Shown here in pieces: positions 1-49,921 of a DNA stretch of 64,000 nt (positions are counted from its first letter, which is position 1; each line of letters opens with the position of its first letter). This stretch comes from Candidatus Nomurabacteria bacterium. GTDB taxonomy: Bacteria; Patescibacteriota; Minisyncoccia; Phycocordibacterales; SBAW01. Location: NCBI GenBank assembly GCA_943348815.1, contig CALQYT010000003.1, positions 4,679 to 68,678 on the forward strand. Reading direction: 5' to 3'. Both the position numbers and the translations under genes were made by a program. The notes below the pieces were generated by a model. It had not been told where the DNA came from and did no database searches. It saw nothing but the letters and a program-made list of their open reading frames with translations.

Positions 1-144
1 ACCAAGGATTGGCCGGGAATCCAGTTGGCATAGACCTCGACATTGATAACCTTAGCCGGCTCGGGCCGAGCAGCTAAGAAACACAGGCTCGCAAGAACAA
101 AAGGGCTCATGGCTCTCCCCAACTTCTGCCGTTTTACTCTATTC

Positions 145-837
145 TCACCACCCCTTTTTGTCGAGCGCGGCCCTTGCGGCGGCCTGCTCGGCCTCTTGTT
201 TGCTTTTGCCCGAACCTTCGGCAAGCAACGTTTCTTTTATATAGACACCCACTTCAAACTTTTTGTCATGGTCGGGGCCGCTCTCGCTTAGCACCACATA
301 GTGCGGCGTAACGCCGTGATGCTCCTGCGCTTTTTCTTGGAGCGACGACTTGGCATCGAGCCACAACTTTTTGCGGACGATGTCGTCAATTTTGGGGAAG
401 AGATTCCTTTCTATAAATCCGCGCGCAGCGTCATAGCCTGAGTCTATATATATTGCGCCAACGAGCGCCTCAAACGCATTGGCAAGCAAAATGCTGCGCG
501 CGCGGCCGGTATCTTTGGCCTCGCCACGACTCAGCAACAAAAAATCATTCATACCGAGTGACTCGGCGACTTCGGCGCACGTAACCGCGTTAACCAACGC
601 CGCGCGGTAGGCGGTCAGCTCGCCCTCATTTTCTTGCGGATACTTCTCATACAAAAAATGCGTCGAAATAAGTTCGAGTACCGCATCGCCCAAAAACTCG
701 AGCCGCTCATTGTGCTCAAGGGTTTCGCCTCGGTGTTCGTTGAGGTAGGAGCGGTGCGTAAACGCCTGCCGCAACAACCCTAGGTCATTAAACTCAACCC
801 CAATCGACGCTTCGAACGATTTAAAATCTTTAGGCAT
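145..837 (-). CDS. rnc: Ribonuclease III
   Basis: 230 aa with the ERLEFLGDAVL RNase III catalytic signature and a C-terminal dsRBD-like region. Its start overlaps the stop of the upstream nusB-like gene by 8 nt. Confidence 0.9.
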   Translation of the reverse strand: MPKDFKSFEASIGVEFNDLGLLRQAFTHRSYLNEHRGETLEHNERLEFLGDAVLELISTHFLYEKYPQENEGELTAYRAALVNAVTCAEVAESLGMNDFLLLSRGEAKDTGRARSILLANAFEALVGAIYIDSGYDAARGFIERNLFPKIDDIVRKKLWLDAKSSLQEKAQEHHGVTPHYVVLSESGPDHDKKFEVGVYIKETLLAEGSGKSKQEAEQAAARAALDKKGW

Positions 838-1762
838 TTTTCTTCTGCTTTTGTTTTTCGGGCCTCGTAAGTTTGTCTACTGCTTTTTGCACAATCGGGA
901 GCATATCTTCGTAAAAATTGAGTTCGAGCGCGTCTTGCAATTTAAACCACCGTGCGTCATCCAACCCTCCTTTTTGCTCGAGCACAATGTCTACAAACGA
1001 TGCTTCGGCCAAAAAGTACGTGACATGTTTGCGCTTTTTGCCGGTCGCGGGGTCCGAAGCTACATACTCGTTCTCCCCCACCTTTTCTTTAAGTTTGATA
1101 TCGAGACCGAGCTCCTCTTTAATCTCGCGGATGGTACCGTCCTCGACCGTCTCGTTGGCAATCTCCGGGCTGTCGCCGATTTTGCCTTTGCTCAATGTCC
1201 AGTGGCCAAAGATATCGTGCACGAGCGCCAAGTATAGCTCGCCCTTATTCCGCGCATACACCACCGCGCCACCCAGTCGCTGCACGGGCATCTGGTCGTA
1301 GGGCACATCCTTTTTCTTTTTAGAAACTTCGTCTTTGCCGGGCTCGCCGAGCTCTTTGTACACGGCGCCCAACACGCCGTTGACAAACCGGCCGCTATTT
1401 TCGCCGCCAAACCGCTTTGCTAGTTCGATCGCCTCGTTGATAGCAACTTTAGCGGGCACTTTGCTGCGGTCGCTAAACAACAGCTCAAAGAGCCCAAGCC
1501 GCAACACGTTGCGGTCAACCGGTGCGATCCGCGGGAGCGGCCACTCAGGTGCGGCCTTAGCAATCACCAAGTCCAAGTCTTTGTGGCGCTCAATAGCGCC
1601 GGCCAACAACTCCTCCATAAACGGCAAATCGCCCGCTGCCGGGGCGAACTCTTGCGCATTACGCGCGAGCGCTTCTTTGGCCACGGCAAGGGACGCAGAG
1701 CGGAGATCCCACTCGAAGAGTGTCTGGAGGACTACTGAGCGTGATAGGTGCCTGTTGGCCAT
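830..1762 (-). CDS. nusB: NusB antitermination factor fused to a C-terminal Nudix hydrolase domain
   Basis: The N-terminal ~140 aa is NusB-like (RSVVLQTLFEWDL...). The C-terminal ~150 aa carries a Nudix box (E-x7-REIKEELGL). It is one uninterrupted ORF; I prefer the ATG at 1762, the track ORF extends to 1807. Confidence 0.65.
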   Translation of the reverse strand: MANRHLSRSVVLQTLFEWDLRSASLAVAKEALARNAQEFAPAAGDLPFMEELLAGAIERHKDLDLVIAKAAPEWPLPRIAPVDRNVLRLGLFELLFSDRSKVPAKVAINEAIELAKRFGGENSGRFVNGVLGAVYKELGEPGKDEVSKKKKDVPYDQMPVQRLGGAVVYARNKGELYLALVHDIFGHWTLSKGKIGDSPEIANETVEDGTIREIKEELGLDIKLKEKVGENEYVASDPATGKKRKHVTYFLAEASFVDIVLEQKGGLDDARWFKLQDALELNFYEDMLPIVQKAVDKLTRPEKQKQKKNA

Positions 1763-1861
1763 TCGTATTTTTAAGAACGCACGTCGCCCGCGACCCAAAC
1801 GATGCAAAGTTCAGATGCCGAAGCCGACGCCTTGGTCGGCTCCCCGACTAAAACGTCGGGG

Positions 1862-2092
1862 CTACTTCTGCGCCTGAGCTTTATCTCTTTTTGCCTTGCG
1901 GGCCGCCTTGGCCGATGCTTTGCCGGCATGGTCAACCACGACGCGTCCGCGGTAGCGCCCGCAGGTCGGGCAGGCACGGTGAGAGACGCGCGGAGCGCCG
2001 CACTCACAGGCCATCACAAACGCCGCCTTAAGCGCATGATGTGAGCGCCGTTGGCGGGTCTGGGAGCGGTTATGTCGCATCCTTACTACCAT
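1862..2092 (-). CDS. rpmF: 50S ribosomal protein L32
   Basis: [17 protein letters not shown]...C.C...CPTCG is a typical L32 N-terminus with a zinc-ribbon. An AAGG RBS sits upstream of the ATG at 2092. Confidence 0.85.
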
Positions 2093-2117
2093 GCCGCTAC
2101 CTTATCATATATACCTA

Positions 2118-2151
2118 AAAATTAAAACACCCTCCTGTTCAACAGGGGGTG
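2118..2151 (-). terminator. Rho-independent terminator-like hairpin
   Basis: Imperfect ~9-bp GC-rich stem (CACCCTCCTG / CAGGGGGTG) with a TTCAA loop. On the minus strand it is followed by TTTTAATTTTT. It lies in the 360-nt gap between rnhB and rpmF. Confidence 0.4.
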
Positions 2152-2451
2152 CTTATTCTTTCTTAACGAAGTGACCACACTGGTCTTGACGAAACGGAGC
2201 CCTGTTCCACCCATTAGCTTCAGGACAGAAAACTGTCGAAGCTATGCCCAGGCCGCTCAGTTCAAAATTGGGGTGCCCGCGATGAACACAGCCGTCGCAG
2301 AGCATTTTTGCTGTTTTTGTGCGTCCCGTTCTCGGCGACGCTTCGGCAGTAGTTAATTCCACGTATCTTCCCCTCGTTCGAGATTCCAGATTTTTTTACG
2401 CACGGAACAACTCGAAAACCATACCATCCCTATTGGCGTATCGTCAAGTGA

Positions 2452-3036
2452 TCAGTTCACACTTCCACAAAAGCTGCGGCGGTGGATGTTGCACAACCCG
2501 TGCCGGCGGATGGCCCGGCGATGGTCTTGCGTGCCATAGCCCATGTGCTGCTCAAACCCATAGTCGGGGTAGAGCATCGAAAGATGTTCCATCGTGCGGT
2601 CGCGGGTAACCTTGGCCAAAATTGAGGCGAGTGATATCAGCGGCACGCGCGCATCGCCGTCTATAACCGTGCGCTGGGTGTAGCCCTCGGGTGCGCGCAA
2701 CAACCCATCGAGCAACACCGTGCTGTGTGCCGCTGGAGCGAGTGCACGTACGCCACTATGCAATGCCACCCGCACGGCGCGCGTGATTCCAAACCGGTCT
2801 ATATACTGATGATCCGAAAAACGGACGATAAACCGCAGGTCGCCACGGCTGGCGCGCCGCTCAACTTCGGTAAAAATAAGCTCGCGTTTTTGCCGCGAGA
2901 GGAGTTTGGAGTCACGCACGAGGGGGAATTCTTTTAACACATCAAACCCGGGCGGTATGGCCACGACGCCCACCGATACAGGGCCGGCGAGCGGGCCTCT
3001 CCCCGCCTCGTCCACCCCGATGATGAACTCCATCAT
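2452..3036 (-). CDS. rnhB: Ribonuclease HII
   Basis: GVDEAGRGPLAGPV N-terminal signature of RNase HII; the C-terminal ...HRRSF is typical. Confidence 0.9.
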   Translation of the reverse strand: MMEFIIGVDEAGRGPLAGPVSVGVVAIPPGFDVLKEFPLVRDSKLLSRQKRELIFTEVERRASRGDLRFIVRFSDHQYIDRFGITRAVRVALHSGVRALAPAAHSTVLLDGLLRAPEGYTQRTVIDGDARVPLISLASILAKVTRDRTMEHLSMLYPDYGFEQHMGYGTQDHRRAIRRHGLCNIHRRSFCGSVN

Positions 3037-3078
3037 TAGATTTATTGTATCAGAGGGCGGGGAGCGTATACTGGGCGT

Positions 3079-6078
3079 ATGTCACAGGGTTTTGTACCGC
3101 TGCATGTCCACTCGCACTACTCGCTTCTAAAAGCATTACCTAAAATCCCCGACCTCGTGGCGCGCGCCAAAGCGTGCGGGTATGAATCGATGGCGCTTAC
3201 CGACCTCGATAATTTGTATGGCGCGCTCGAATTTTATAAAGAGTGTAAAGCGCAAGGTATTAAGCCAATCATTGGTCTTGATGCCAAACTCGAAGGCGGC
3301 GCACGCATATTGTTGTTTGCCCAAAACGAACGCGGCTACAAAAATTTGATGGTGCTGGTTACCAAAACCCACGCGCAAGACGCGCAGGGCGTACCACTGA
3401 CGCACGAACTTTTGCGCGAGCATCAAGAAGGTATTTTGACGCTCGACCCGCGCGATGCAACCGTAGCGCTGCCCGAGATTTATTATCTTGACCCGGAAGA
3501 CCGGCGTGCATGGGAGGTAATGCGCGCGATAGAAAACCGCGGCCCAAGCGAGAGTGGCAATGTGGCCGAAGAAGACGAAGCATACTTCTTCCCCAGCGCC
3601 GACCAAATCGCCGAGCGCTACACACCTGAGCAAATCGTCAAAACCGCTGAAATTGCCGCGCAATGCACAGTAGAACTTGAGCTGGGCAAATGGGTGTTCC
3701 CCGACTTCCCCATCCCCGCAGGCTCAAATTTTAATGACGAACTCCGGAGCAAAATTGAAGATGGAATCAAACGCCGCTTTATTTCGGCGACCACCGAGGT
3801 GCGCGAGCGCGTTGAATACGAATATCAAATTATTACCGACAAAGGCTACGCGCCGTACTTTTTGGTGGTCGCCGACCTGCTCGCTTTTGCGCGGCAAAAC
3901 GGCATCTTGACCACGATCCGCGGTTCGGTTGCCGGCAGTTTGGTTACGTATGTTACGGGGATTACGAATGTGAATCCGCTCGAATATAAATTGCCGTTCG
4001 AACGCTTTTTAAACCCCGAGCGCCCGTCGGCCCCCGATATCGACATGGACTTTGCCGACAACCGCCGCGATGAGGTGATTGAGTATGCGCGCAAAAAATA
4101 TGGCACCGAGCACGTGGCACAGATTGGCACCTTTGGCACCATGTTGGCGCGCGGTGTGGTGCGCGACGTTGCCCGCGCCTTGGGCCACCCCTACGGCTTG
4201 GGCGACCGGCTGGCCAAAGCGGTGCCGTTTGGCTCGCAGGGCTTCCCCATGACACTCGAGCGCGCGCTCGAGGAAAACCCGGAGCTCAAACAAATGTACG
4301 ATTCCGAAGAAGAAACTAAAGAAGTGATCGACCTAGGCAGAAAAATCGAAGGCTGCGCACGCCACGTGGGTGTGCACGCCGCGGGCGTGGTTATCTCACC
4401 ACTCTCCTTGGTCAACTACTCGCCGCTCCAACTCGACCCAAAGGGCGGAAAAATTATTACGCAGTACGACATGTACTCAATCGAGGACGCCGGGCTGTTG
4501 AAGTTTGATTTCCTCGGCATCCGCAACCTGGCCATACTCGCCGACGCGGTGCGCTTGGTAGAAAAAACGCGCAATATAAAAATCGATATTGAAAATGTTC
4601 CCGTCGACGACAAAAGCACCTACGATATGCTCGCGCGCGGCGAAACGGAAGGAATTTTTCAACTCAACGGCGCGGGAATGACGCGCTACCTCAAAGAGCT
4701 GCGCCCCACGACAATCCACGACATCAACGCGATGGTGGCGCTGTTTCGCCCCGGCCCCATGGAAACGATCCCGATGTATATCGAGCGCAAACACAACGCA
4801 GCACTCATCCACTACCTCGACCCACGGATGAAGGAGTACTTAGACTTTTCGTACGGTGTATTGGTCTACCAAGACGACGTGCTTTTGACCGCTATTACGC
4901 TCGGCGGCTACTCGTGGCTCCAGGCCGACATGCTGCGCAAAGCAATGGGTAAAAAAATCCCGGCCGTGATGGAAGCCGAGCGCGAAAAACTGACCAAAGG
5001 GTTTATTGAGTACGGCAAACTTTCGAAACAACTCGCCGACAAATTGTGGAAATTAATCGAGCCCTTTGCCGCGTACGGATTTAACAAAGCGCACGCCGCA
5101 AGCTACGGGCGCGTGGCCTACCAAACCGCGTATATGAAAGCCAACTTCCCCGTCGAGTACATGGCAGCGGTGCTCACGGCCGAGGCGGGCGACATCGACA
5201 CGGTGGCGGTGATGGTCAACGAGTGCAAACGCATGGGCGTGGCGGTGCTGCCGCCGGATGTAAACGAAAGTTTTGGCGACTTTACCGTAATCCTCGCGGC
5301 TCCTAAGGACTCTCCTTTGGAAACGCCTAACCCCCGACGGGGTGCCGATGCGGCAGACGCTATAAGGTTTGGCCTCTATTCAATCAAAAACTTTGGCAGC
5401 GGGGTGGCGGATGAAATTATTAAAGAAAGAAAGGCGGGCGGCAAATTTAAAACCATCGGCGACTTTTTAGAGCGCGTCAAAACGCAAGGACTCAACAAAA
5501 AAGGTTTGGAGAGTTTAATCATGTGCGGAGCGCTCGATAGCCTTGGCGAGCGCGGCGCGATGTTGGCAAGCCTCGAACTTTTGCTCGAGCATCAACGTGC
5601 CGGGCGCGATGGGGCCCACGACTCGCTTTTTGCAGGTATGGACGCTGAGACAACCTTTGTAGTTCCTCCCGCTCCAGCTGCGGAGCTTGCGGTAAAACTT
5701 GGGTGGGAAAAAGAGTTGCTCGGCCTCTACGTGTCGGGCCATCCACTCGACCGCGTTAAAGACAAATTGGAAAAAGCGCATCAAAGCGGCAAGTCGATGA
5801 GTATCAAACAACTGCGCGAGCACGCACAGCCGGGCACTACACTGGTTGCGGCGGGGATGATAGAGACCGTGCGCACCATACTCACCCGCGGCGGCGACCA
5901 GATGGCGTTTATTAAGATCGCAGATTATGGAGGCTCCATTGAGGCAGTAATATTTCCAAAAAGCTTTGTCGAATATAAGGACATTCTCAAGCCCGACTCG
6001 TGCATCGCGCTCAAAGGCCGCGTCTCAAACCGCAATGGCGAGCTGTCCTTGGTTGCCGAGGCACTTAAAGCGTTGTAA
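3079..6078 (+). CDS. dnaE: DNA polymerase III alpha subunit (compact form, 999 aa)
   Basis: PHP-domain N-terminus (HVHSHYSLL...ALTDLDNLYGA), polymerase core motifs, and a C-terminal OB-fold region. Confidence 0.95.
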   Translation: MSQGFVPLHVHSHYSLLKALPKIPDLVARAKACGYESMALTDLDNLYGALEFYKECKAQGIKPIIGLDAKLEGGARILLFAQNERGYKNLMVLVTKTHAQDAQGVPLTHELLREHQEGILTLDPRDATVALPEIYYLDPEDRRAWEVMRAIENRGPSESGNVAEEDEAYFFPSADQIAERYTPEQIVKTAEIAAQCTVELELGKWVFPDFPIPAGSNFNDELRSKIEDGIKRRFISATTEVRERVEYEYQIITDKGYAPYFLVVADLLAFARQNGILTTIRGSVAGSLVTYVTGITNVNPLEYKLPFERFLNPERPSAPDIDMDFADNRRDEVIEYARKKYGTEHVAQIGTFGTMLARGVVRDVARALGHPYGLGDRLAKAVPFGSQGFPMTLERALEENPELKQMYDSEEETKEVIDLGRKIEGCARHVGVHAAGVVISPLSLVNYSPLQLDPKGGKIITQYDMYSIEDAGLLKFDFLGIRNLAILADAVRLVEKTRNIKIDIENVPVDDKSTYDMLARGETEGIFQLNGAGMTRYLKELRPTTIHDINAMVALFRPGPMETIPMYIERKHNAALIHYLDPRMKEYLDFSYGVLVYQDDVLLTAITLGGYSWLQADMLRKAMGKKIPAVMEAEREKLTKGFIEYGKLSKQLADKLWKLIEPFAAYGFNKAHAASYGRVAYQTAYMKANFPVEYMAAVLTAEAGDIDTVAVMVNECKRMGVAVLPPDVNESFGDFTVILAAPKDSPLETPNPRRGADAADAIRFGLYSIKNFGSGVADEIIKERKAGGKFKTIGDFLERVKTQGLNKKGLESLIMCGALDSLGERGAMLASLELLLEHQRAGRDGAHDSLFAGMDAETTFVVPPAPAAELAVKLGWEKELLGLYVSGHPLDRVKDKLEKAHQSGKSMSIKQLREHAQPGTTLVAAGMIETVRTILTRGGDQMAFIKIADYGGSIEAVIFPKSFVEYKDILKPDSCIALKGRVSNRNGELSLVAEALKAL

Positions 6079-8121: not shown

Positions 8122-11100
8122 CTAAGGCTTAGACAAAACTTGGTTGATTCGCTTGTAGATCCGCTCAGGTGGGATAGACGACGCGCCAATCTTCTCGCCA
8201 TTTTCCTCAATGTAGTAACCGCTCTTCCATTTTTGATCCCACAAGAGCGCGTAGGTACCCGTACGCTTGCGATAGTTTTCGAACGCTTTGGCGTGTGTCA
8301 CTCGAATAGTTTTGGGTTCTGACCACTGAATAGGATCGCCCAAAATAAGCATCACGTTGGGGGTGCCCAGTGCTGCAGCAAAATGTCCGAGTCCTGTATC
8401 AGGAGTTACCACCACTTTAGACATAGCAAGAATGGGATTTATAAATTCGGCATTTTCTTTTCCTACTGAAAAACGGCGGCCAAAACGAGTCTTAAGCCGC
8501 TCCATAAGTGACGCGTACCGGCCTCTGCGCTCTGCGCTTGGATCTTCCAAAAATAAGACATGTGCATCTGCGTGTTCCGCAAATATTTTTGTAAGTAGTT
8601 CCTCCCAACGCTCAGGAGCATATTCTTTAGGCTGGACTCCCGCGCCCGCTGAAATAGTTATTACCTTTTCGTTGGGCTGAATATCATATTTGGTACGGAG
8701 TCGTTCAACCTGTTCAGTGTGGTCGGCACGTTTTCCTATAAACGATTCGACCTTCTTAATATCCTCAAACAATTTTTGACCGGTCATGAGCTCGAGATTC
8801 CGCATAACCCTCTGTGGGATCATGTCGTAACGTTTGGTCAATTTACCTTCGCGTGGCGCTTCCTCCATAAGCCAACTGTTCCAGTCGACGGACATGACAT
8901 AGCCGGGGTCACCCGCGCGCCTAGGTGCGACACCCAATGCTGCATAATCCTTATACGTTTTGTCTGCATTAATCACAAACCTCTCTCTGTTGGGCGCACC
9001 CTGCACTAGTGCTTTTACCTCTGCAAGATTGACGACACGCAAACCAGGATACTGTGTTTCCAGTGCTCCAAACAAAGCTTTGTTGTGCTGACTCACTACC
9101 GTAATCTGCTTGGTCGTACCGTTTTGTTTAAAATAGTGGTCGAGCGCCATGATAACCGGCATAGTTACGACGGAGTCGCCGACGGGACCATCAAGCATAA
9201 GGATTACTTCATCGGCACGCTCGAGACCCTTACGCAATGGCGAAGTTTTATAGAATTCCTCAGCAAAAGGCTTTCCTCCTACTTTTGACTCCTCGATAAA
9301 GATGTTTTCAATCTGCCGATAGGTACGGTCTAGCTGCATATCCACAAATCTGGAGAGAGAGTAGTCGGTGTTGTAGCGCTTATTGTGTTGCAACCGCTCT
9401 CCTTCAAATACTTGTTGTGCACGCGCCGGAAGATTTTCAAAATCTTCAAGCTCTTTGAGTCGGTTCAACACCGAACGATATTTAACGCGCAAATCTTTTT
9501 CATACTTAAGACGCTCTACTAACTCTTTCATTCGCTGGGAGTTTTGGGTATTGCGGTACACCTTCTCAAGATCGGTGTAGTCGTTTTTCATGCCGCCTGA
9601 ACCACGCTCATACCCATAGCCCCCTGCAAAGTGCCCTGGCTCTTCGGGCGAAGGTCCGTGTACCGGCGTGCGCAGCGGATCGGGATTCCTAAGACGCTCC
9701 AGTGGCGTGCGCGGAATAAAAGGAATAAAGGGCGGTGGATCAACCTCAGGGTCAGCAGGGACATTGATCGTGGTGTCCCACCACCGGATTGTTTCTTCTC
9801 GCGTAACTCTCCTTGTAATTGCATCTTCTGTACGATACGTAACTTTGTCAGGAACACTCGGCCTATCTTCGCCCACTTGTGTTGCAAGTATGCGTACTCC
9901 TGTGGCATCTTCGCGCACACGCATGGTCTGCGCCACTTCGGCAAAAGCACCTTTAAATACTGCCCGGCCTTTGGCATCAGTTTCAAATAATAGTCTTGCT
10001 ACTTCACTGTCGCGTGGAATGATTGCCTGACCATTGCGATCTATCGCCACCTCAAACACTTGGTTTTGAGTACCCTTAGATACTGAAAGCAGGAGCGAGA
10101 GTTTGCCAGTGCGCATCAATTCCTGCGCGTTAGCGCTATGTGGACCGTGGAACGAACCGTCGGGCCGCATACCTCGCACAGTGTATACATAGTCACCCGC
10201 GGCATTGACTCCGGTATTGTTAGGACCTCCATACCAAAGACGCAATTCATTTTTATCAAATACTGGCTTAGGCGTGTTGTTGTCGTACCATAGCTCGCGT
10301 TTTATGGTCTTGGTGTCGCCACGCTCGGCATAGTCTTGCACTGCCTCCCCGACACTCATGGGCGTGCGCACCGCTACCCGCTTACCCGGCTCGGTTACGG
10401 TAGTATCAATATAATTGATTGCCGTGTGAGGACCCCCCGTGAGGGCAATATCATGCTTTTTGAGCAAATCTTTTGCAGCATCAGTAAAGTTGCCATCACG
10501 GTCGGTGGTGAGCCCACTTACCACCACCTCGCCATTACGTATAAGCGTAACGGTGTCAGCAACTTTGGTGAGCGAAAAGCCGTCAGGCATACGGATATGG
10601 TTACTGCCGATCTGATCCATAACCGGCCCGCCCATAAGCATGTAAGAAGGTTCACCATTGATAAGGTGCGACGCCTTCATACGCACCCACTCAAGTGCCG
10701 TAACACTGTCTGGCGGATTGACCGGTTTTCCTTGCGTAAGCCGTTCAATCAGCCCCATCTGGTTTTTATTAAAGAAAGCCATGGTTTCTTGAGCCACAAG
10801 ACCAACCCCAAGACCAACCAACGCTCCTACGGTTGCTGCCTTAAATACTTTGCGATCTTTAATTTGGGAAAATAAAGCGTCTTTCCTTTCGCGTTCAGTT
10901 TCTCGCTCTCCCCTGACAAGCGCGCGCTGCGCGACCAGCTCAGCATTTACCGTGCTACTCGTCACATAACTATGGAGCTCCGAGTCGGTGCTTAGAGTCC
11001 CGTGAATGGCCGCGCGCAGTTGTGCGCGCAATACGTCAAGCTCACAACGCTCTTTAACAATGTTTTGAGGATTACTAAAATGTATGTAGTCTTTCTTTTC

Positions 11101-12270
11101 TTCATTACCCTTCTGTACCAAATCGTCTACTTCAGCCAAGGCCAAAAAGCCATCCTTAAATAAAACGTACCGCTGCTCAAGCGTCATCCCTGGCGGCTGA
11201 TTGCGTGCTATTATCACGAGCGACGTTTCCAGCCGCTGCGCAAGCTCGCCGGCCGATTTGGTTTCGTACCGGGTCTTTTCCATCTCTTCCCGCCGCTTTT
11301 GACCTGGCTCGATTTTTTTACCCATTGCCATTTCACGACTATGCAACGAACGGTCTTTCTCCATCCTTCGACTCTCACGCACCGCCGCGATACCACCCGC
11401 TACAAGCGCGGTTAAACCTAAACTTGCCCAAGCGGCGCCCCGACTGGTCAGCGCCTTGGCTCCAAAAACGCCTACACTCGCTGCCATGCCGAGTCCTGCC
11501 GCAACGGTCGCTTCGTTTACAAGTAGAAATTTGCCTACTTTGCTGGATTGTATTCTGTCCACAAGACCGTCAACGCGCTTGAGCTCTTGGTCGGTCCTCA
11601 CATTGCTGCGCGCACGGCCCGCAACCACTTCAAACTCCAGATCAAGCAGTTCTGCACCAGTGCCGTGTGCTACCTGTGCTTGCACCTGCCACACCACCTC
11701 CTCGAGATTGTCGGCAAAGAGCCGATTGCGCTCACCTGCTTTTTCATCCAACACCTCGCCCTTAGCTGCGGCTACCGACTCGATAATAGCTTTACGCTCT
11801 ATCGCAAACGCTTCGCGCACCTGTGGATCACGCATATCTTTGAGTGCATACTCCTGCACCATCTCTAGGATTTTCTTTTTTATTTCTTTCTCTGCAGGAG
11901 TATCTTCGAGCACGGCGCGTTTTTCGCCCGCATCTTTATGCACCGCATATTGTGCATACTCACTGGTAAACTGCTTAACCACGGCACGGATAGATGACTC
12001 TACCGCCTCGCGCTCAGGCCCGTCGGCAACGGTCTCCCGTAGGCGCTCCAGCTCGTGAATTTCTTTTTGAGCTTTCGTTATTTCCTTTTGGCGATAGTAA
12101 TCGTATGCATAGTTGTGCTGCCAGAGCTTTTTCAAGAAACCTTTGAACCCTTTTAATTGATCCGCATTTTCAGTAAGACGCGCCTCGGCAGTGTCGCGCG
12201 CGTTCTCTTTAACACTATGCGTGCGCTCGACTATGGCAATCTTAATTTTTTGCTTGCGTGGTGCTTCCAT
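8122..12270 (-). CDS. Large multi-domain membrane protein with a C-terminal GT9 (heptosyltransferase-like) glycosyltransferase domain
   Basis: 1382 aa. The N-terminal ~240 aa is charged/coiled-coil. There are predicted TM helices (KFLLVNEATVAAGLGMAASVGVFGA, WASLGLTALVAGGIAAV, ATVGALVGLGVGLVA). The C-terminal ~350 aa matches GT9 motifs (ILMLDGPVGDSVVTMPV..., TISAGAGVQPKEYAPERW, VVVTPDTGLGHFAAALGTPNVMLILGDP). Confidence 0.6.
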   Translation of the reverse strand: MEAPRKQKIKIAIVERTHSVKENARDTAEARLTENADQLKGFKGFLKKLWQHNYAYDYYRQKEITKAQKEIHELERLRETVADGPEREAVESSIRAVVKQFTSEYAQYAVHKDAGEKRAVLEDTPAEKEIKKKILEMVQEYALKDMRDPQVREAFAIERKAIIESVAAAKGEVLDEKAGERNRLFADNLEEVVWQVQAQVAHGTGAELLDLEFEVVAGRARSNVRTDQELKRVDGLVDRIQSSKVGKFLLVNEATVAAGLGMAASVGVFGAKALTSRGAAWASLGLTALVAGGIAAVRESRRMEKDRSLHSREMAMGKKIEPGQKRREEMEKTRYETKSAGELAQRLETSLVIIARNQPPGMTLEQRYVLFKDGFLALAEVDDLVQKGNEEKKDYIHFSNPQNIVKERCELDVLRAQLRAAIHGTLSTDSELHSYVTSSTVNAELVAQRALVRGERETERERKDALFSQIKDRKVFKAATVGALVGLGVGLVAQETMAFFNKNQMGLIERLTQGKPVNPPDSVTALEWVRMKASHLINGEPSYMLMGGPVMDQIGSNHIRMPDGFSLTKVADTVTLIRNGEVVVSGLTTDRDGNFTDAAKDLLKKHDIALTGGPHTAINYIDTTVTEPGKRVAVRTPMSVGEAVQDYAERGDTKTIKRELWYDNNTPKPVFDKNELRLWYGGPNNTGVNAAGDYVYTVRGMRPDGSFHGPHSANAQELMRTGKLSLLLSVSKGTQNQVFEVAIDRNGQAIIPRDSEVARLLFETDAKGRAVFKGAFAEVAQTMRVREDATGVRILATQVGEDRPSVPDKVTYRTEDAITRRVTREETIRWWDTTINVPADPEVDPPPFIPFIPRTPLERLRNPDPLRTPVHGPSPEEPGHFAGGYGYERGSGGMKNDYTDLEKVYRNTQNSQRMKELVERLKYEKDLRVKYRSVLNRLKELEDFENLPARAQQVFEGERLQHNKRYNTDYSLSRFVDMQLDRTYRQIENIFIEESKVGGKPFAEEFYKTSPLRKGLERADEVILMLDGPVGDSVVTMPVIMALDHYFKQNGTTKQITVVSQHNKALFGALETQYPGLRVVNLAEVKALVQGAPNRERFVINADKTYKDYAALGVAPRRAGDPGYVMSVDWNSWLMEEAPREGKLTKRYDMIPQRVMRNLELMTGQKLFEDIKKVESFIGKRADHTEQVERLRTKYDIQPNEKVITISAGAGVQPKEYAPERWEELLTKIFAEHADAHVLFLEDPSAERRGRYASLMERLKTRFGRRFSVGKENAEFINPILAMSKVVVTPDTGLGHFAAALGTPNVMLILGDPIQWSEPKTIRVTHAKAFENYRKRTGTYALLWDQKWKSGYYIEENGEKIGASSIPPERIYKRINQVLSKP

Positions 12271-12658: not shown

Positions 12659-13486
12659 TTATTTCGCGCGAGAGATCTGCGACGCGATGAACGGGTCGAT
12701 ACCAGCGTACTTAGAAGGAGTGCTGGTAGCAGCCTGACGAACCGGAGCGTGGGTTACCGTTGCACGAGTCGGCGTCGAGCCAACCATCCAAGCAACGATT
12801 TTGTTTTGAATTTTCTTAACCGCTACAAGATATGCCGCGATCAAGCACCAGAGGACGAGGAAGCCCCAGTAGGCTGCCGTGCCCCACGTACCCAAGTCGA
12901 GACCCGTGTACGGAGCGGCTGCCAAAGAGACATACGGCTGCGCGCGGTAAACCGTCGGCTGTTGGTAGACCGGGTACTGTGCAGGATATTGATACTGTTG
13001 AGTGTAGATCGGCTGTTGCGGAGCATAGACCGGCTGTGATACCGGAACATACACCGGGTAAGAGCCGCCGTTGCTGCCACCGCCGGCGATAGTAACCGTC
13101 GTCGGAGCGTTGAAGATCGAGTGATCGTCGACGTTGCAGGAGTTGACTGCCGTACAGGTACTCACTTGAGTGAGCGTGTTGGTATTGGTGTTGACGTTGG
13201 TATTAGACGGCATGCCGCTAAAACCACCGAAGCCGCTGGTGAAGCCGCCGCCGCCAAAAAAGCCCGGCGAGCTGAAGCCACCCATACCACCGCCAAAACC
13301 GCCCATACCGAGATCGCCGCCGCCGATGTCACCGCCCATGGGGATCCACGAGTCGATAGTTTCACCACCGCCAGGGATAACCGGGAGGTCTGCTGCATAC
13401 GCCGGCAGTGCAAGCACAAAGAGCGCCGCAATAGCAAAAGCTGCCACAAGCGAGATTCCAAAAGTTTTCTTAGTAATTGTATTCAT
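12659..13486 (-). CDS. Secreted low-complexity (Gly-rich, then Tyr/Gln/Pro-rich) protein with a C-proximal TM segment
   Basis: Signal peptide (LVAAFAIAALFVLALPAYA), GGFGGGMGGF-type glycine repeats, a PVYxxPQQPIYTQQYQYP region, and a hydrophobic helix followed by KKIQNK. Confidence 0.55.
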   Translation of the reverse strand: MNTITKKTFGISLVAAFAIAALFVLALPAYAADLPVIPGGGETIDSWIPMGGDIGGGDLGMGGFGGGMGGFSSPGFFGGGGFTSGFGGFSGMPSNTNVNTNTNTLTQVSTCTAVNSCNVDDHSIFNAPTTVTIAGGGSNGGSYPVYVPVSQPVYAPQQPIYTQQYQYPAQYPVYQQPTVYRAQPYVSLAAAPYTGLDLGTWGTAAYWGFLVLWCLIAAYLVAVKKIQNKIVAWMVGSTPTRATVTHAPVRQAATSTPSKYAGIDPFIASQISRAK

Positions 13487-17956: not shown

Positions 17957-18415
17957 TTACAACACTGCTTTTTCAAACGCCTCGATAATCGGCAGGAGAT
18001 ATTTGGAGATTCTTTCTTTGGCAGCGGGAATAGCAAAAAACTCGCCACGATCACACTCGGGTATCTCAATCTTTTTACCCGAGCGCGGCGGCCACTCGAT
18101 CACAATTTTATTGCTCACGAGCTTAGTCGTATCGCAATCACCCTCAAACATCCACGCCTCAACGGTTTTGCCTGTTCGCTGCGCAGAGCCCACATAGATA
18201 AAATTTCCTTCAGGTTTAAGCCCTGTCTCTTCTTCAAACTCGCGCTTGGCAACATCAATAAGTTGCTCCCCTTCTTTAGACTCACCTTTGGGGAAGCTCC
18301 AACACGCAAAATCTTTTTTAGCCCAAAAAGGGCCGCCCGGATGTACGAGCAACACCTCAACAACGCCGTCGGTGCGGCGATACATCAGCAGCCCGGCGCT
18401 CAGCACCTGCGCCAT
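17957..18415 (-). CDS. Nudix hydrolase
   Basis: Nudix box G-x5-E-x7-REFEEETGL; 152 aa. Confidence 0.8.
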   Translation of the reverse strand: MAQVLSAGLLMYRRTDGVVEVLLVHPGGPFWAKKDFACWSFPKGESKEGEQLIDVAKREFEEETGLKPEGNFIYVGSAQRTGKTVEAWMFEGDCDTTKLVSNKIVIEWPPRSGKKIEIPECDRGEFFAIPAAKERISKYLLPIIEAFEKAVL

Positions 18416-18417
18416 AC

Positions 18418-20505
18418 TTAAATATCTAGGTTAGCGAGCTTGGCGTTGGATTGGATAAACGATTTGCGGCTCGAGACGTCCTCGCCCATCAGGATATCAA
18501 AGATTTTATCAGCGTCTTGCGCGTCTTCAATATTGACCAACTTGAGCACGCGGTTGTCTGGGTTCATGGTCGTCTCCCACAGCTCTTCGGGGTTCATTTC
18601 GCCCAAGCCTTTGTAACGTTGGATCGAAACCTTGCTGCTTTTCTTTTTGACCTCAACTTCTTCCACACCTTTTTCTTCGTCCGCCACAGCGTTGGCGTCG
18701 GCGGGGTCATCACCCGAAAGCTCAGTCTCTATCTCGTCTTTGCCAACCTTGGCGTTTTTTTCCTCATCAGAATAGGCGTAGCTAATTTCTTTGCCTTTTT
18801 TGATTTTATACAACGGCGGTTGCGCAATAAACAGGTAGCCGCCCTCAACTACCGGACGGAAGTGCCGGAAAAAGAGTGTGAGGAGGAGCGTGCGGATGTG
18901 TGCGCCGTCTACATCGGCATCGGTCGCGATAATTATTTTGTGATAGCGGAGTTTAGAAAGATCAAACACATCGCCTATCGCGGTACCCAGCGCCAAAATA
19001 AGGTGCTTAATTTCTTGCGACATGAGCATTTTGTCCAAGCGCGCACGCTCAACGTTGAGTATCTTGCCGCGCAACGGGAGTATTGCTTGCGTGCGGCGAT
19101 CGCGGCCTTGTTTGGCCGAGCCGCCTGCGGAGTCGCCCTCTACGATAAAGATCTCCGACTCGCTTGCCTCTTTGCTTTGACAATCCGCTAGTTTGCCCGG
19201 CAGACCAAAACCCTCGAGGGCGCCTTTGCGCAGCACCGAGTCTTTGGCCGCCTTAGCCGCTTTGCGCGCCTTAAGCGCTAATACCGCCTTGCCGGCTATA
19301 AAGCGCGCGTCCTCCGGATTTTCCTCGAGCCAGGCCGAAAAGGCTTCGCTAAATACGGTTTCTACCGCGCCGCGTGCCTCAACACTGCCTAGTTTTGCCT
19401 TAGTTTGCCCTTCAAACTGGATTTCGCGCAGCTTAACCGAGACGACGGCCGACAAGCCTTCGAGTACATCCTCGCCGGTAAAGTTTTCTTCGCTTTCCTT
19501 CAGTGCGCCGGATTTGCGCGCGTAAGCGTTGAGGGTGCGCGTGAGCGAAGTCCTAAATCCGGTTACATGCGCACCGCCCTCACTCGTGTAGATATTGTTG
19601 GCAAACGGGAGCACGCGCGCGGTGATGTCGTCGACATACTGGAGTGCAATCTCCACGCCGACACCGGCCTCCTCCTTCTCTACATAAAAAATATTTTTGT
19701 GCACCGGCTTTTGGCTCCGGTTAGTAAACGAAATGAGCGAGCGCAAGCCGCCCTCGAAATAAAATGACTGCGAGGGCTCCGCGTGCAAAAGATTGCGGAT
19801 ATACAACTCTTCGCCCACTGCCGGAATTTTTACCTCGGCCTTACGGGCATCAATGATCGTGATCCGCAGTCCTTTAACCAAGTAGGCTTGCTCGCGGAGG
19901 TGCGCCACTATTTTGTCAAAGTCGTAGGTAACGCCGCCGGTAAAGATGTCAGGGTCTGCCGCAAACGAAGTCACCGTGCCGTGGAGTTTGGAGCTGCCAA
20001 GCTTTTTGACCGCGGCCTTCTTTTTGCCGAGCCCGTATTCCTGCACATACGCACTGCCTTCGCGGTGCACCTCGACCACCACCTTAGTCGAGAGCGCGTT
20101 GACTACCGCGGCACCCACACCGTGAAGACCGCCGGAGACTTTGTACCCTTCGCCGCCAAATTTACCACCAGCGTGCAGCGTGGTCATAACCGTCTCGAGT
20201 GCGCTTACTTTGGTTTGTTTGTGGACATCAACCGGGATACCGCGGCCGTTGTCGGCAACACGCACAACACTACCGGGCAAGAGTACTACCTCAATATCGT
20301 CGGCAAAGCCGCCCATTGCCTCGTCGCGTGAGTTGTCAAAAATTTCCCACACCAGGTGATGCAGGCCATCGGGGCCGGTGGTGCCGATGTACATGCCGGG
20401 GCGACGGCGTACGGCCTCGAGCCCTTCCAACACCGTAATATCGGCAGCGGAATAACTGCCCTGCCTGCCGGCAGGCAGGCTTTTTTTGTCTTTAGAGTCG
20501 GCCAT
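18418..20505 (-). CDS. gyrB: DNA gyrase subunit B (type IIA topoisomerase ATPase subunit)
   Basis: GHKL ATPase N-terminus (LEAVRRRPGMYIG), Toprim domain, and a C-terminal QRYKGLGEMNPEELWETTMNP tail. ParE cannot be excluded. Confidence 0.85.
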   Translation of the reverse strand: MADSKDKKSLPAGRQGSYSAADITVLEGLEAVRRRPGMYIGTTGPDGLHHLVWEIFDNSRDEAMGGFADDIEVVLLPGSVVRVADNGRGIPVDVHKQTKVSALETVMTTLHAGGKFGGEGYKVSGGLHGVGAAVVNALSTKVVVEVHREGSAYVQEYGLGKKKAAVKKLGSSKLHGTVTSFAADPDIFTGGVTYDFDKIVAHLREQAYLVKGLRITIIDARKAEVKIPAVGEELYIRNLLHAEPSQSFYFEGGLRSLISFTNRSQKPVHKNIFYVEKEEAGVGVEIALQYVDDITARVLPFANNIYTSEGGAHVTGFRTSLTRTLNAYARKSGALKESEENFTGEDVLEGLSAVVSVKLREIQFEGQTKAKLGSVEARGAVETVFSEAFSAWLEENPEDARFIAGKAVLALKARKAAKAAKDSVLRKGALEGFGLPGKLADCQSKEASESEIFIVEGDSAGGSAKQGRDRRTQAILPLRGKILNVERARLDKMLMSQEIKHLILALGTAIGDVFDLSKLRYHKIIIATDADVDGAHIRTLLLTLFFRHFRPVVEGGYLFIAQPPLYKIKKGKEISYAYSDEEKNAKVGKDEIETELSGDDPADANAVADEEKGVEEVEVKKKSSKVSIQRYKGLGEMNPEELWETTMNPDNRVLKLVNIEDAQDADKIFDILMGEDVSSRKSFIQSNAKLANLDI

Positions 20506-25084: not shown

Positions 25085-26089
25085 TTAGCCTTGCTTGCTG
25101 AGAACAAGCGCGATTTCGTCTTTGGAATCCTCATCCAGTTCAGGCAACGCTGCGGGTATACCCGCAGCGTGAGTAAAACCGTGTTCAATTTCGGTGAGGA
25201 TCACCCCATCAAGATCGTGTGGTGTGATGTTGATTCCCATAGTGGAACAGTGTTCTCTCATAAACTCTTGGCTCATATGCTGTATATATTCTTTTACAGC
25301 TTCCTCGTCTATCTCTCTTAAAAGATCCCTACTAAGCAAACCGTGTCTGCGCAGCTCCTCCATAGAAATTTCTTGGTCGTATATATCTGGATACGCCCGT
25401 ACCGCAGTCCAAAAAGTTCCCAGTTTTCTTCTATAGAGGTTTAACACGTCGTCAACTTTACCACCATCGATATTTTTGTCTTTAAAGTGCTGACGTAACG
25501 CCTCTCGATTTTCCATTTCCTTTTTCAAAACATCGCTGAGCAAATTACCTTGCTTATGGCCGCTCATTCCGCCGAGTCCGTGTTCCCAGTGCGGCATCGC
25601 TTCCATAAAAGTGTCTCGGTCATTTTTATCCATCAACCCGTTTTCTACCAAATCTTGGAATGCGCCACGCAAGGCCAATCTGGTGGCAAAAACATGAGGA
25701 AGTGGGAGGGTGGCGCCACCATGAAGAAACCGCCGCGCTAAATCAGCGTCCGCTTTAGCTTGCGGAGACCTAAAGTCCTTGCTGCGCTCATCGATTGAAA
25801 GTTTGAGGTTAGGACGAACCTCGCGATCGAATCTCGTTTCAACTGCGTGAATAAACTTTGGCCAGAATCCTTTTTTATAAATATGGGAATTCGCGTCAGT
25901 GTCTTTTTCTAAATCATCCAAAAAAACATCAACTTTTTTGCATTCATTGAAAAATTGCTCAACCGAAGAAATGCCTTCCGGTGACGCCCCTACAATCCCC
26001 CGATGGGCTTTCTTATCTGACCCAAGTGTATCGTCGTCAGGTCGGGCAAATACTGGTCTGTTTTCCTTCATATGCTCAAATAGTAGCAT
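25085..26089 (-). CDS. Hypothetical protein (334 aa)
   Basis: Long ORF with no recognisable domain and no TM segment. Confidence 0.4.
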   Translation of the reverse strand: MLLFEHMKENRPVFARPDDDTLGSDKKAHRGIVGASPEGISSVEQFFNECKKVDVFLDDLEKDTDANSHIYKKGFWPKFIHAVETRFDREVRPNLKLSIDERSKDFRSPQAKADADLARRFLHGGATLPLPHVFATRLALRGAFQDLVENGLMDKNDRDTFMEAMPHWEHGLGGMSGHKQGNLLSDVLKKEMENREALRQHFKDKNIDGGKVDDVLNLYRRKLGTFWTAVRAYPDIYDQEISMEELRRHGLLSRDLLREIDEEAVKEYIQHMSQEFMREHCSTMGINITPHDLDGVILTEIEHGFTHAAGIPAALPELDEDSKDEIALVLSKQG

Positions 26090-26108: not shown

Positions 26109-26184
26109 TGGAGCCAGCGCGAGGATTCGAACCCCGGACCAATCCCTTACAAAGGGACCGCTCTACCAACTGAGCTACGCTGGC
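26109..26184 (-). tRNA. tRNA-Thr (anticodon UGU)
   Basis: The reverse complement folds as a 76-nt cloverleaf: GCCAGCG acceptor, D-arm GCTC/GAGC, anticodon loop TTTGTAA, T-arm GGTTCGAATCC, and an encoded CCA. Confidence 0.85.
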
Positions 26185-49902: not shown

Positions 49903-49921
49903 TTCATATATACTAACAGGT

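What the first reader, a model, noticed from the sequence alone, without database searches (positions are those of the whole stretch)
830..1762. NusB fused in frame to a Nudix hydrolase
The ORF upstream of rnc, co-directional and overlapping it by 8 nt, starts as a canonical NusB (about 140 aa). It continues without a stop into a ~150-aa Nudix domain with an intact catalytic box (E-x7-REIKEELGL). A second, stand-alone Nudix gene is at 17957..18415. Fusing an antitermination factor to a nucleotide-diphosphate hydrolase is unusual. It could link transcription antitermination to (d)NTP sanitising, alarmone turnover or RNA decapping.
Basis: seen in the sequence. Interest (0 to 1): 0.55.

Follow-up and report, generated by a model that had tools for sequence, protein, structure and literature searches.

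The report
NusB fused to Ap4A-hydrolase-type Nudix
In one large branch of the tiny-genome Patescibacteria, the transcription antitermination factor NusB carries a nucleotide-polyphosphate-binding (Nudix) domain on a flexible tether; the fusion is real and uncharacterised, and may link rRNA transcription to RNA 5'-end or alarmone chemistry.

Summary
Window 1762..830 (minus strand) is one uninterrupted 310-aa ORF with NusB at residues 1-138, a disordered basic linker at 139-160 and a Nudix domain at 161-298. It overlaps rnc by 8 nt.

It is not an assembly artefact. The identical protein occurs on three independently assembled contigs. Every listed hit of two searches (240 in all) has both domains, and 50 GTDB species representatives encode both in one frame.

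It is the resident NusB. The order rpmF-nusB-rnc is kept both in fused lineages and in sister Paceibacteria with plain NusB, and both groups conserve the same NusB residues. The linker derives from a charged C-terminal tail already present on unfused NusB.

By sequence and fold the Nudix part is a diadenosine-polyphosphate (Ap4A/ApnA) hydrolase type, not MutT or RppH. This protein has REIKEELGL intact, with a 5-aa insertion upstream.

Across the family the "RE" glutamate was lost at least 10 times independently. The stacking tyrosines, basic phosphate-binding residues and the last box glutamate are nearly invariant. So polyphosphate-nucleotide binding, not necessarily turnover, is the selected property.

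The mechanism is inferred: a tethered Np4-cap, 5'-polyphosphate or Ap4A module acting at the antitermination complex.

Verdict: a new architecture built from known parts. I found no description of it in the held literature.

The parts
830..1762 (-). Complete nusB-nudix ORF (310 codons plus the stop at 830-832)
   Evidence: The identical product is found on 3 independent contigs.
1349..1762 (-). NusB domain, residues 1-138, seven helices
   Evidence: Pfam PF01029 E 6.5e-34. TIGR01951 scores 121 bits, above the 88 cut-off. AF2 pLDDT is mostly above 85. Foldseek to Aquifex NusB 3r2d_B gives TM 0.88 and rmsd 1.9. It shares the same conserved residues as unfused sister NusBs.
1283..1348 (-). Linker, residues 139-160 (GEPGKDEVSKKKKDVPYDQMPV), basic and predicted disordered
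   Evidence: pLDDT is about 35 for residues 140-152 and pTM is 0.55. Mean pairwise identity is 89% in the close clade. The GEPGK motif plus a charged tail is already present at the C-terminus of unfused sister NusBs. 'MPVQRLGG' resembles the N-termini of stand-alone relatives, such as MPKEISAGG in P0255. I read this as a relic start codon (inference).
869..1282 (-). Nudix domain, residues 161-298, of the Ap4A/ApnA-hydrolase type
   Evidence: Pfam PF00293 E 2.4e-12. The family profile against PDB gives 3i7u 4e-20, 4ilq, 1vc8, 1kt9 and 3u53. Foldseek to 3i7u gives TM 0.88 and rmsd 2.0.
1103..1186 (-). Nudix box region, G193...E204-x7-R212 E213 I K E216 E217 L G L220, with a 5-aa insertion between G193 and E204
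833..868 (-). Lys/Gln-rich C-terminal tail, residues 299-310, poorly conserved and disordered; its last codons overlap the rnc start
145..837 (-). rnc (RNase III), overlapping the nusB-nudix stop by 8 nt
   Evidence: Pfam Ribonucleas_3_3 plus dsrm. Its position immediately after nusB is conserved in nearly all fused and unfused loci long enough to show it.
1862..2092 (-). rpmF (ribosomal protein L32), the upstream neighbour
   Evidence: Pfam PF01783. Synteny is conserved.
17957..18415 (-). Separate stand-alone Nudix gene with a canonical box (GESKEGEQLIDVAKREFEEETGL), downstream of gyrB. It is not part of the fusion but is relevant to redundancy.
   Evidence: It is only 30% identical over 87 aa to the fused Nudix domain.

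Best explanation
Shown. This is the organism's resident, orthologous NusB. In one Paceibacteria subclade it acquired a C-terminal Nudix domain of the diadenosine-polyphosphate (Ap4A/ApnA) hydrolase type. The domain was added at the end of a disordered, charged tail that sister-lineage NusBs already carry. The two folded domains are joined by a flexible tether of about 20 residues, and both are under purifying selection.

Inferred. The NusB half does the usual job: with S10 it binds boxA-like RNA and rides on RNA polymerase in the rRNA antitermination complex. This holds the Nudix half next to the emerging transcript. There it binds a nucleoside-polyphosphate moiety through two stacking tyrosines (Y233, Y284), basic residues (K192, K242, R244, K245) and metal-binding glutamates (E216, E217). 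Candidate ligands are an Np4 cap or 5'-triphosphate on the nascent RNA, or free Ap4A-type alarmone.

This organism keeps all four box glutamates and the arginine, so here the domain probably also hydrolyses the ligand (decapping, 5'-end conversion or alarmone clearance). That would couple 5'-end status or alarmone level to rRNA transcription and to the RNase III processing encoded by the overlapping downstream gene. In roughly half of related species the 'RE' glutamate is replaced, so binding rather than fast turnover appears to be the family-wide selected property.
For: - Real and clade-wide. The protein is identical on 3 assemblies. All 240 listed hits carry PF01029 plus PF00293. 50 GTDB species loci have both domains in one ORF.
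- Orthologous NusB. TIGR01951 is above its cut-off. rpmF-nusB-rnc synteny is shared with 31 plain-NusB loci that have no Nudix within about 4 kb. The conserved residues are identical in fused and unfused NusB. There is a single NusB ORF in the window. Fused proteins form essentially one clade on a NusB-domain tree.
- Tether. The linker has pLDDT about 35 and pTM is 0.55. The ancestral GEPGK plus charged tail is seen in unfused NusBs.
- ApnA type. The profile against PDB gives 3i7u 4e-20, CT771, Ndx1, Ce Ap4A hydrolase and NUDT2, then Dcp2. Foldseek to 3i7u gives TM 0.88.
- Selection. The Nudix domain is as conserved as NusB, at .82 against .83 and .64 against .71.
- Binding residues outrank catalytic ones. 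W188, K192, W272 and Y284 show 0 changes and Y233 is kept in 44/46. E213 shows at least 10 independent E/non-E changes, R212 6, E216 4 and E217 1.
- Biochemical plausibility. Np4A caps on bacterial RNA are removed by a Nudix enzyme (RppH) and by ApaH (PMC7044304 and PMC8833179). A Nudix fold lacking two of the box glutamates binds Ap4A without hydrolysing it, inside an RNA-processing factor (CFIm25, PMC2425470).
Against: - No biochemical or in vivo datum exists for any family member.
- AF2 predicts no interdomain interface, so nothing shows that the two halves cooperate.
- The nusB-rnc linkage predates the fusion and so says nothing specific about the Nudix part.
- The fused Nudix domain matched no RppH model in NCBIfam.
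- No rRNA leader or boxA could be examined, because there is no rRNA gene in the window.
- Retention of E216/E217 with variable E213 could also mean an altered but still efficient catalytic mechanism.
Confidence: 0.4

Rival explanations
1. Two independent functions on one polypeptide. A housekeeping Ap4A/ApnA hydrolase gene landed between nusB and rnc and lost the intervening stop. It is kept fused only because this gives convenient co-expression in a streamlined genome. The Nudix half clears free dinucleoside polyphosphates anywhere in the cell, with no functional link to antitermination.
For: - The linker is flexible and disordered, and no interface is predicted.
- A relic initiator-like 'MPVQRLGG' at the domain start resembles the N-termini of stand-alone relatives.
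- Patescibacteria genomes are small and gene fusions there are common (general knowledge).
- The catalytic box is intact in this protein.
Against: - A pure housekeeping hydrolase should not lose its 'RE' glutamate at least 10 times while the rest of the domain stays under strong constraint.
- The fusion is kept across a deep clade, down to about 27-30% identity. Clear re-splitting is rare.
- The linker itself is 89% identical in the close clade.
- The genome already has another canonical stand-alone Nudix.
Confidence: 0.3
2. A ligand-sensing regulatory domain (pseudo-enzyme or very slow enzyme). The Nudix half binds Ap4A or another nucleotide signal and changes NusB activity or availability. 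rRNA antitermination would then respond to translational or oxidative stress, as NrtR uses a Nudix-like domain as the effector sensor for a DNA-binding domain.
For: - E213 is lost recurrently and R212 varies, while the stacking and phosphate-binding residues are invariant.
- Precedents: the NrtR Nudix-like effector domain (PMC2330246), whose structure 3gz8 is among the Foldseek hits, and CFIm25, which binds but does not hydrolyse Ap4A.
- A related Nudix is fused to sigma70_r4 plus a DnaA-type HTH in P0205 (a singleton, so weak).
Against: - E216 and E217 are kept in 92-96% of species, and the window's close clade keeps the full R-E-E-E set in 113 of 120 sequences. Classic Nudix sensors have lost more of the box.
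- No allosteric path is evident through a disordered linker.
Confidence: 0.2
3. Artefact: two adjacent genes (nusB and a Nudix gene) joined by a sequencing or assembly error.
For: None was found. One GTDB locus (L046) has a frameshift inside NusB and one (L049) has a broken Nudix part, which shows that errors do occur in such MAGs.
Against: - The ORF is identical on three independent assemblies.
- 50 species-level loci have both domains in the same frame.
- All 240 listed database hits are about 300 aa with both Pfam domains.
Confidence: 0.01

Closest known systems
Canonical bacterial NusB (TIGR01951; e.g. E. coli 3d3b, Aquifex 3r2c/3r2d, T. maritima 1tzt)
   Same: The N-terminal 138 residues pass the equivalog model. 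They have the all-helical fold (TM 0.88 to 3r2d_B) and occupy the conserved nusB locus. They keep the family's conserved motifs: the N-terminal R4/R8, DRN.LR.G..EL, VP.KVAINEAIELAK and F.NGVLG.
   Different: This protein carries a 170-residue C-terminal extension (tether plus Nudix domain). No described NusB has an enzymatic or ligand-binding appendage.
RsmB/Sun 16S rRNA m5C967 methyltransferase (N-terminal NusB-like domain fused to a catalytic domain)
   Same: It is the known precedent for the NusB fold preceding an rRNA-directed enzyme domain in one polypeptide. RsmB models give partial hits to residues 8-151.
   Different: Here the N-terminal domain is a true NusB orthologue, not the divergent RsmB paralogue. 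The appended domain is a Nudix fold, not a methyltransferase. The RsmB models score far below their cut-offs.
Nudix Ap4A/ApnA hydrolases (Aquifex aq_158 3i7u; T. thermophilus Ndx1 1vc8; Chlamydia CT771 4ilq; C. elegans 1kt9; human NUDT2 3u53)
   Same: These are the best sequence-profile and fold matches. Shared features are the W-T-x-x-K-G motif and a Tyr 13 residues after the box (Y233). A C-terminal Tyr (Y284) aligns with the adenine-stacking Y121 of the C. elegans enzyme (alignment; residue roles are from my own knowledge and PMC2425470).
   Different: Those enzymes are stand-alone proteins of about 130-150 aa with an invariant REUxEE. This domain is always C-terminal to NusB. Its 'RE' Glu is replaced in about half of species, and the window's subclade has a 5-aa insertion in the G-x5-E loop. 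Identity to solved members is only about 23-25%.
RNA-decapping Nudix enzymes (RppH, Dcp2, NudC)
   Same: They share the Nudix fold acting on 5'-terminal polyphosphate or cap structures of RNA. Dcp2 is the next-best PDB family after the ApnA hydrolases, and RppH removes Np4 caps (PMC8833179).
   Different: The fused domain gives no hit to RppH NCBIfam models. The RNA-binding features of RppH and Dcp2 were not demonstrated here.
Non-catalytic Nudix modules in nucleic-acid-binding regulators (NrtR; CFIm25/NUDT21)
   Same: A Nudix fold with an eroded box serves as a ligand- or RNA-binding module attached to, or working with, a nucleic-acid-binding factor. The NrtR Nudix structure 3gz8 is a Foldseek hit, and CFIm25 binds Ap4A without hydrolysis.
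   Different: Only one of the four box glutamates is commonly lost here, and the window protein has lost none. The partner domain is an RNA-binding antitermination factor, not a wHTH or a polyadenylation-factor subunit.
Mycobacterial MutT1 / Rv2985 (Nudix diadenosine polyphosphatase fused to a histidine-phosphatase domain)
   Same: It is a two-domain protein whose Nudix half belongs to the same structural neighbourhood (9cxx and 5gg5; NCBIfam NF052459 gives a weak hit).
   Different: The partner domain and domain order differ, and its score is far below the model cut-off (25 against 475 bits).

Membership tests
NusB (transcription antitermination factor) | Match to the curated equivalog model TIGR01951 above its trusted cut-off, and to Pfam PF01029 | tested here: met
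   121.2 bits against a cut-off of 88.35. PF01029 E 6.5e-34 over profile positions 3-133 of 133.
NusB (transcription antitermination factor) | All-alpha NusB fold | tested here: met
   The AF2 model has 7 helices with pLDDT mostly above 85. Foldseek to 3r2d_B gives TMt 0.88 and rmsd 1.9, and to 1eyv 0.81.
NusB (transcription antitermination factor) | Orthology: it occupies the nusB locus and keeps the residues conserved in plain NusB of related lineages | tested here: met
   rpmF-nusB-rnc order is seen across fused and unfused loci. The conserved-residue sets are identical. There is only one NusB ORF in the 64-kb window; the rest of the genome was not seen.
NusB (transcription antitermination factor) | Binds S10 (NusE) and boxA RNA and supports antitermination | not testable with these tools
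   There is no rRNA leader in the window. This needs biochemistry.
Nudix superfamily | Pfam PF00293 match and the alpha/beta/alpha Nudix fold | tested here: met
   E 2.4e-12, 47.4 bits against a cut-off of 21.1. The fold matches many Nudix structures.
Nudix superfamily | Nudix box G-x5-E-x7-R-E-U-x-E-E-x-G-U | tested here: inconclusive
   In the window protein E-x7-REIKEELGL is intact, but the G-to-E spacing is 10 rather than 5. Across 49 species, R-E-E-E is complete in 23 and E213 is present in 24.
Ap4A/ApnA-hydrolase subfamily of Nudix | Closest sequence and structural relatives are characterised ApnA hydrolases | tested here: met
   Profile against PDB: 3i7u 4.1e-20, 4ilq 2.3e-15, 1vc8 5.9e-14, 1kt9 2e-11 and 3u53 4e-11. 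The top Foldseek hit is 3i7u, followed by Rv2985, Ndx1 and CT771.
Ap4A/ApnA-hydrolase subfamily of Nudix | Aromatic residue about 13-17 aa downstream of the box, plus a C-terminal Tyr, that stack the adenine; basic residues for the phosphates | tested here: met
   Y233 is 13 aa after L220 and kept in 44/46 species. Y284 is kept in 46/46 and aligns with C. elegans Y121. K192 is kept in 46/46, and K242/R244/K245 are mostly kept. The motif is described in PMC2425470. The correspondence rests on sequence alignment only, not on a superposition.
Ap4A/ApnA-hydrolase subfamily of Nudix | Hydrolyses Ap4A or ApnA | not testable with these tools
   An enzyme assay is needed.
RppH (RNA pyrophosphohydrolase) | Match to the RppH equivalog models (PRK00714 series) | tested here: not met
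   The fused Nudix domain gives no RppH model among its hits at E<=0.01. The stand-alone Nudix at 17957-18415 gives only weak sub-threshold hits.
MutT-type 8-oxo-(d)GTP sanitising enzymes | Match to the MutT equivalog models | tested here: not met
   PRK10776 MutT scores 15.9 bits against a cut-off of 148. The mycobacterial MutT1 model scores 25-28 bits against 475.

The most novel reading that the evidence does not exclude
NusB in this Patescibacteria clade is a dedicated co-transcriptional 5'-end reader or eraser. Riding on RNA polymerase via S10 and boxA, its tethered ApnA-type Nudix domain recognises Np4-capped or triphosphorylated 5' ends of nascent rRNA, or senses Ap4A. In species with a full box it decaps them. 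This makes antitermination and downstream RNase III processing depend on 5'-end chemistry or alarmone level. It would be the first bacterial case of cap- or alarmone-handling machinery physically built into a transcription elongation complex.
Probability: 0.2. Interest if true: 0.75.

Novelty: new variant of a known kind. Interest (0 to 1): 0.5.

Why it matters
NusB is a core, near-universal elongation and antitermination factor, and no enzymatic or ligand-binding appendage has been described for it. Here an entire, abundant branch of the Candidate Phyla Radiation has only this extended form at the nusB locus.

If the Nudix half works in cis, it would show three things:
- how organisms with minimal regulatory repertoires wire nucleotide signals (Ap4A is made by aminoacyl-tRNA synthetases, so it needs no dedicated synthase) or RNA 5'-cap status into ribosome production;
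- a natural, tractable system for studying Np4 capping and decapping during transcription;
- a clean natural series of a Nudix domain moving from enzyme towards binder.

In practice, public annotation calls these proteins simply 'NusB', so the second domain is invisible to annotation-based surveys.

Tried and rejected
- Assembly or frameshift artefact: rejected.
- Upstream TTG start at 1807: rejected, because all homologues begin at MANRH.
- RsmB-type NusB-like paralogue: rejected, because the nusB equivalog is above its cut-off and the RsmB models are far below theirs.
- MutT-type or RppH-type Nudix: no support.
- Gene fusion from an adjacent Nudix gene in sister lineages: not supported. Plain-NusB loci have rnc directly downstream and no Nudix within about 4 kb.
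- Internal translation start at M158: considered because stand-alone-like fragments start 'MP[VI]E..GG'. No Shine-Dalgarno-like sequence lies at a suitable distance on reading, and nusB's own start lacks one too. This remains untestable here.
- Literature: three searches (NusB+Nudix; NusB+Patescibacteria; NusB+Nudix+fus*) found nothing on the fusion, and the Nudix-clan review does not mention NusB.
- afdb50 fold search: the library was unavailable.
- Taxonomic origin of the nearest stand-alone Nudix relatives: the cluster look-up returned no organism names.
- Promoter and terminator scan of 1-3200: counts were no greater than in shuffles.
Full report
**Observation**

The feature lies on the minus strand. 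An ORF runs from the ATG at 1762 to the stop at 832-830 and encodes 310 residues. Pfam finds NusB at residues 7-136 (E 6.5e-34) and NUDIX at 167-292 (E 2.4e-12). The NCBIfam nusB equivalog TIGR01951 is passed, at 121 bits against a cut-off of 88.

RNase III (rnc, 145..837) follows on the same strand and overlaps by 8 nt. Ribosomal protein L32 (1862..2092) precedes the ORF. The motif E204-x7-REIKEELGL is present.

The glycine-to-glutamate spacing is 10 rather than 5, because of a 5-residue insertion (KGKIGDSPEIANE). This insertion is confined to the window's immediate subclade; 39 of 46 related species have the canonical spacing. The second Nudix gene (17957..18415, minus strand, downstream of gyrB) exists and has a textbook box.

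**Not an artefact**

- The identical 310-aa product is encoded on three contigs assembled independently from different samples.
- A search of 5.8 billion proteins returned only ~300-aa proteins with both Pfam domains among its 120 best hits, at 79-100% identity. A profile search returned another 120, at about 54-70% identity. Both searches hit the ceiling of 8000 scored clusters.
- In one-genome-per-species GTDB contigs, 50 of the 80 best loci carry NusB and Nudix in one ORF and one frame.

**What it is, evolutionarily**

The fused form occurs in records labelled Kaiser-, Adler-, Zambryski-, Nomura-, Ryan-, Niyogi- and Komeilibacteria, and generic Paceibacterota or Parcubacteria. Sister lineages have plain NusB of 140-186 aa; these include Yanofsky-, Moran-, Azam-, Staskawicz-, Wildermuth-, Harrison- and Nealsonbacteria.

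The gene order L32-nusB-rnc is the same in both groups. The plain-NusB loci have no Nudix gene within about 4 kb. The fused and unfused NusB domains conserve the same residues, and the window holds only one NusB ORF. On a NusB-domain neighbour-joining tree the fused proteins form essentially one clade. There are four parsimony changes, and one of them is a visibly broken fusion. So this is the resident NusB with an added domain, not a paralogue.

The unfused sister proteins already end in ...Y(K/R)E(I/L)GEPGKD followed by a 20-45-residue Lys/Glu-rich tail. The linker of the fusion is therefore an ancestral disordered tail onto which the Nudix domain was appended. The start of the Nudix part (MPVQRLGG) resembles the N-termini of the nearest stand-alone relatives, such as MPKEISAGG and MAKEASAGG. 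I read this as a relic initiator codon (inference).

**The Nudix half**

I searched the Nudix domain alone against 1.84 billion 50%-identity representatives. It gave only 140 clusters at E<=1e-10. Essentially every full-length one, down to 29% identity, is again NusB plus Nudix. Stand-alone proteins of about 140 aa appear at about 33-37% identity.

A profile of the domain finds the following in the PDB:
- Aquifex Ap4A hydrolase 3i7u (4e-20)
- Chlamydia CT771
- T. thermophilus Ap6A hydrolase Ndx1
- C. elegans Ap4A hydrolase
- human NUDT2
- then Dcp2

The AlphaFold2 model (119-sequence alignment, mean pLDDT 85) superposes on 3i7u with TM 0.88 and rmsd 2.0 A. Its NusB half superposes on Aquifex NusB with TM 0.88. 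MutT and RppH models are not matched. The domain is therefore an ApnA-hydrolase-type Nudix.

**Architecture**

Residues 140-152 have pLDDT about 35 and pTM is 0.55, so the model is two rigid domains on a flexible tether with no predicted interface. Sister NusBs tolerate long tails at the same position. The appendage is therefore unlikely to block the S10- and RNA-binding faces (inference). The linker is nevertheless 89% identical within the close clade, as conserved as the domains themselves at 83% and 82%.

**The key new result: which residues are conserved**

| Residue(s) | Role (assigned) | Conservation across species-level representatives |
|---|---|---|
| W188, T189, K192, W272, Y284 | fold and ligand binding | invariant |
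| Y233 | stacking aromatic | 44/46 |
| K242, R244, K245; GGLDD motif | phosphate binding | mostly kept |
| E217 | box glutamate | 47/49 |
| E216 | box glutamate | 45/49 |
| R212 | box arginine | 42/49 |
| E213 | 'RE' glutamate | 24/49; replaced by K, V, A, S, I or G |

On a tree of 46 species, E213 needs at least 10 independent E/non-E changes. That compares with 0 for W188, K192 and Y284, and 1 for E217. Even within the window's >=79%-identity clade, 7 of 120 sequences have G, A or S at this position.

In characterised Nudix hydrolases the box glutamates are metal ligands or the catalytic base. CFIm25, which lacks two of them, binds Ap4A (Kd 2.4 uM) but does not hydrolyse it (PMC2425470). Y233 lies 13 residues after the box, and Y284 aligns with the adenine-stacking Tyr121 of the C. 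elegans enzyme. These fit the ApnA-hydrolase base-stacking pattern described in that paper.

The Nudix domain as a whole is under purifying selection comparable to NusB. What selection preserves, then, is a metal and polyphosphate-nucleotide binding site. Fast turnover seems dispensable in many lineages. The window's own protein retains every canonical catalytic residue and may well be active.

**Mechanism**

Shown:
- a bona fide NusB orthologue;
- an ApnA-type Nudix domain;
- a flexible tether;
- clade-wide retention;
- the conservation pattern above.

Inferred:
- NusB with S10 binds boxA RNA and travels with RNA polymerase. This is established for E. coli, and NusB-containing antitermination complexes 5ms0, 6gov and 6tqn appear among the PDB hits.
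- A 20-residue tether then keeps the Nudix domain within reach of the nascent transcript.
- Np4A alarmones prime transcription and leave Np4 caps, which Nudix RppH and ApaH remove (PMC7044304 and PMC8833179).

My best-supported reading (confidence about 0.4) is this. The Nudix half recognises a 5'-terminal polyphosphate or Np4 cap on nascent (r)RNA, or free Ap4A. In this organism it probably hydrolyses the ligand. That would link 5'-end or alarmone status to rRNA transcription and to processing by the translationally coupled RNase III.

The rivals:
- Two independent functions fused for co-expression (about 0.3). This is favoured by the lack of an interface. It is disfavoured by the recurrent loss of a catalytic residue under otherwise strong constraint, and by a second canonical Nudix in the same genome.
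- A pure ligand sensor of the NrtR or CFIm25 kind (about 0.2). This is disfavoured by retention of E216 and E217.
- Artefact (about 0.01).

**Comparison with what is known**

Both domains are members of known families; see the membership table. The combination resembles RsmB (a NusB-like domain plus an rRNA methyltransferase) in logic, and NrtR and CFIm25 in using a Nudix fold beside a nucleic-acid-binding function. It is a member of neither group.

I found no description of a NusB-Nudix protein in the held literature. A comprehensive Nudix-clan review does not mention NusB. Public records name these proteins only 'transcription antitermination factor NusB' or 'N utilization substance protein B'.

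**Verdict**

This is a new variant (domain architecture) of known kinds. It is common in one CPR clade, experimentally untouched, and has a suggestive but unproven functional link. Interest is 0.5.

Noticed in passing
window 17957-18415 (-), with gyrB at 18418-20505 (-): A stand-alone 152-aa Nudix protein sits immediately downstream of gyrB. It has a fully canonical box (GESKEGEQLIDVAKREFEEETGL) and a W-x-F-P-K-G motif. It gives only weak, sub-threshold RppH-like NCBIfam hits and a weak match to Aquifex Ap4A hydrolase. It is only 30% identical over 87 aa to the fused Nudix domain.
   Followed up: partly
window 41050-46701 (-): A 1883-aa ORF with two DUF7483 stretches (E 1e-81) and a SPRY domain. 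It is followed by a 393-aa protein with a bacterial surface Ig-like domain (46723-47904). These are probably giant surface or adhesion proteins typical of episymbiotic Patescibacteria.
   Followed up: no
window 8122-12270 (-): A 1382-aa ORF whose only Pfam match is a C-terminal glycosyltransferase family 9 segment (residues 1187-1308). About 1180 N-terminal residues have no recognised domain.
   Followed up: no
L053-L083 (plain-NusB loci), C-termini of NusB: Unfused Paceibacteria NusB proteins carry a conserved GEPGKD motif followed by a 20-45-residue Lys/Glu-rich, low-complexity tail that model-organism NusB lacks. Its function is unknown. It is the site where the Nudix domain was added.
   Followed up: partly
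P0205, P0268, P0126, P0204 (representative-library hits): Relatives of the same Nudix subfamily occur in other rare architectures: sigma70 region 4 plus DnaA C-terminal HTH plus Nudix (P0205); Nudix plus MobA-like NTP transferase (P0268); Endonuclease V fragment plus Nudix (P0126); and a 577-aa protein with about 315 unassigned N-terminal residues before NusB-Nudix (P0204). They are singletons, so some may be gene-calling or assembly artefacts.
   Followed up: partly
window residue M158 (nt 1289-1291, minus strand); P0135, P0153, P0154, P0166, P0182, P0226: Six database clusters of Nudix-only proteins or fragments start exactly at the 'MP[VI]E..GG' motif, which corresponds to M158-P159 inside the fusion. 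M158 is at least 90% conserved in the close clade. This could be a relic start codon, an internal start still in use, or gene-caller behaviour on broken genes.
   Followed up: partly
L046 (4246-4264) and L049: One GTDB species locus has a frameshift inside the NusB part of the fusion (with Xs in the translation). Another has the fusion diverging into unrelated sequence just after 'MPVKKLGG' on a 2.2-kb contig. These are probably MAG sequence or assembly errors rather than real splits.
   Followed up: no
window 1-64000: There is no rRNA gene in the 64-kb window and only one tRNA (tRNA-Thr(TGT), 26109-26184, minus strand). Many ORFs of 250-550 aa have no Pfam match, for example 12659-13486, 25085-26089, 48604-50013 and 54336-55895.
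   Followed up: no
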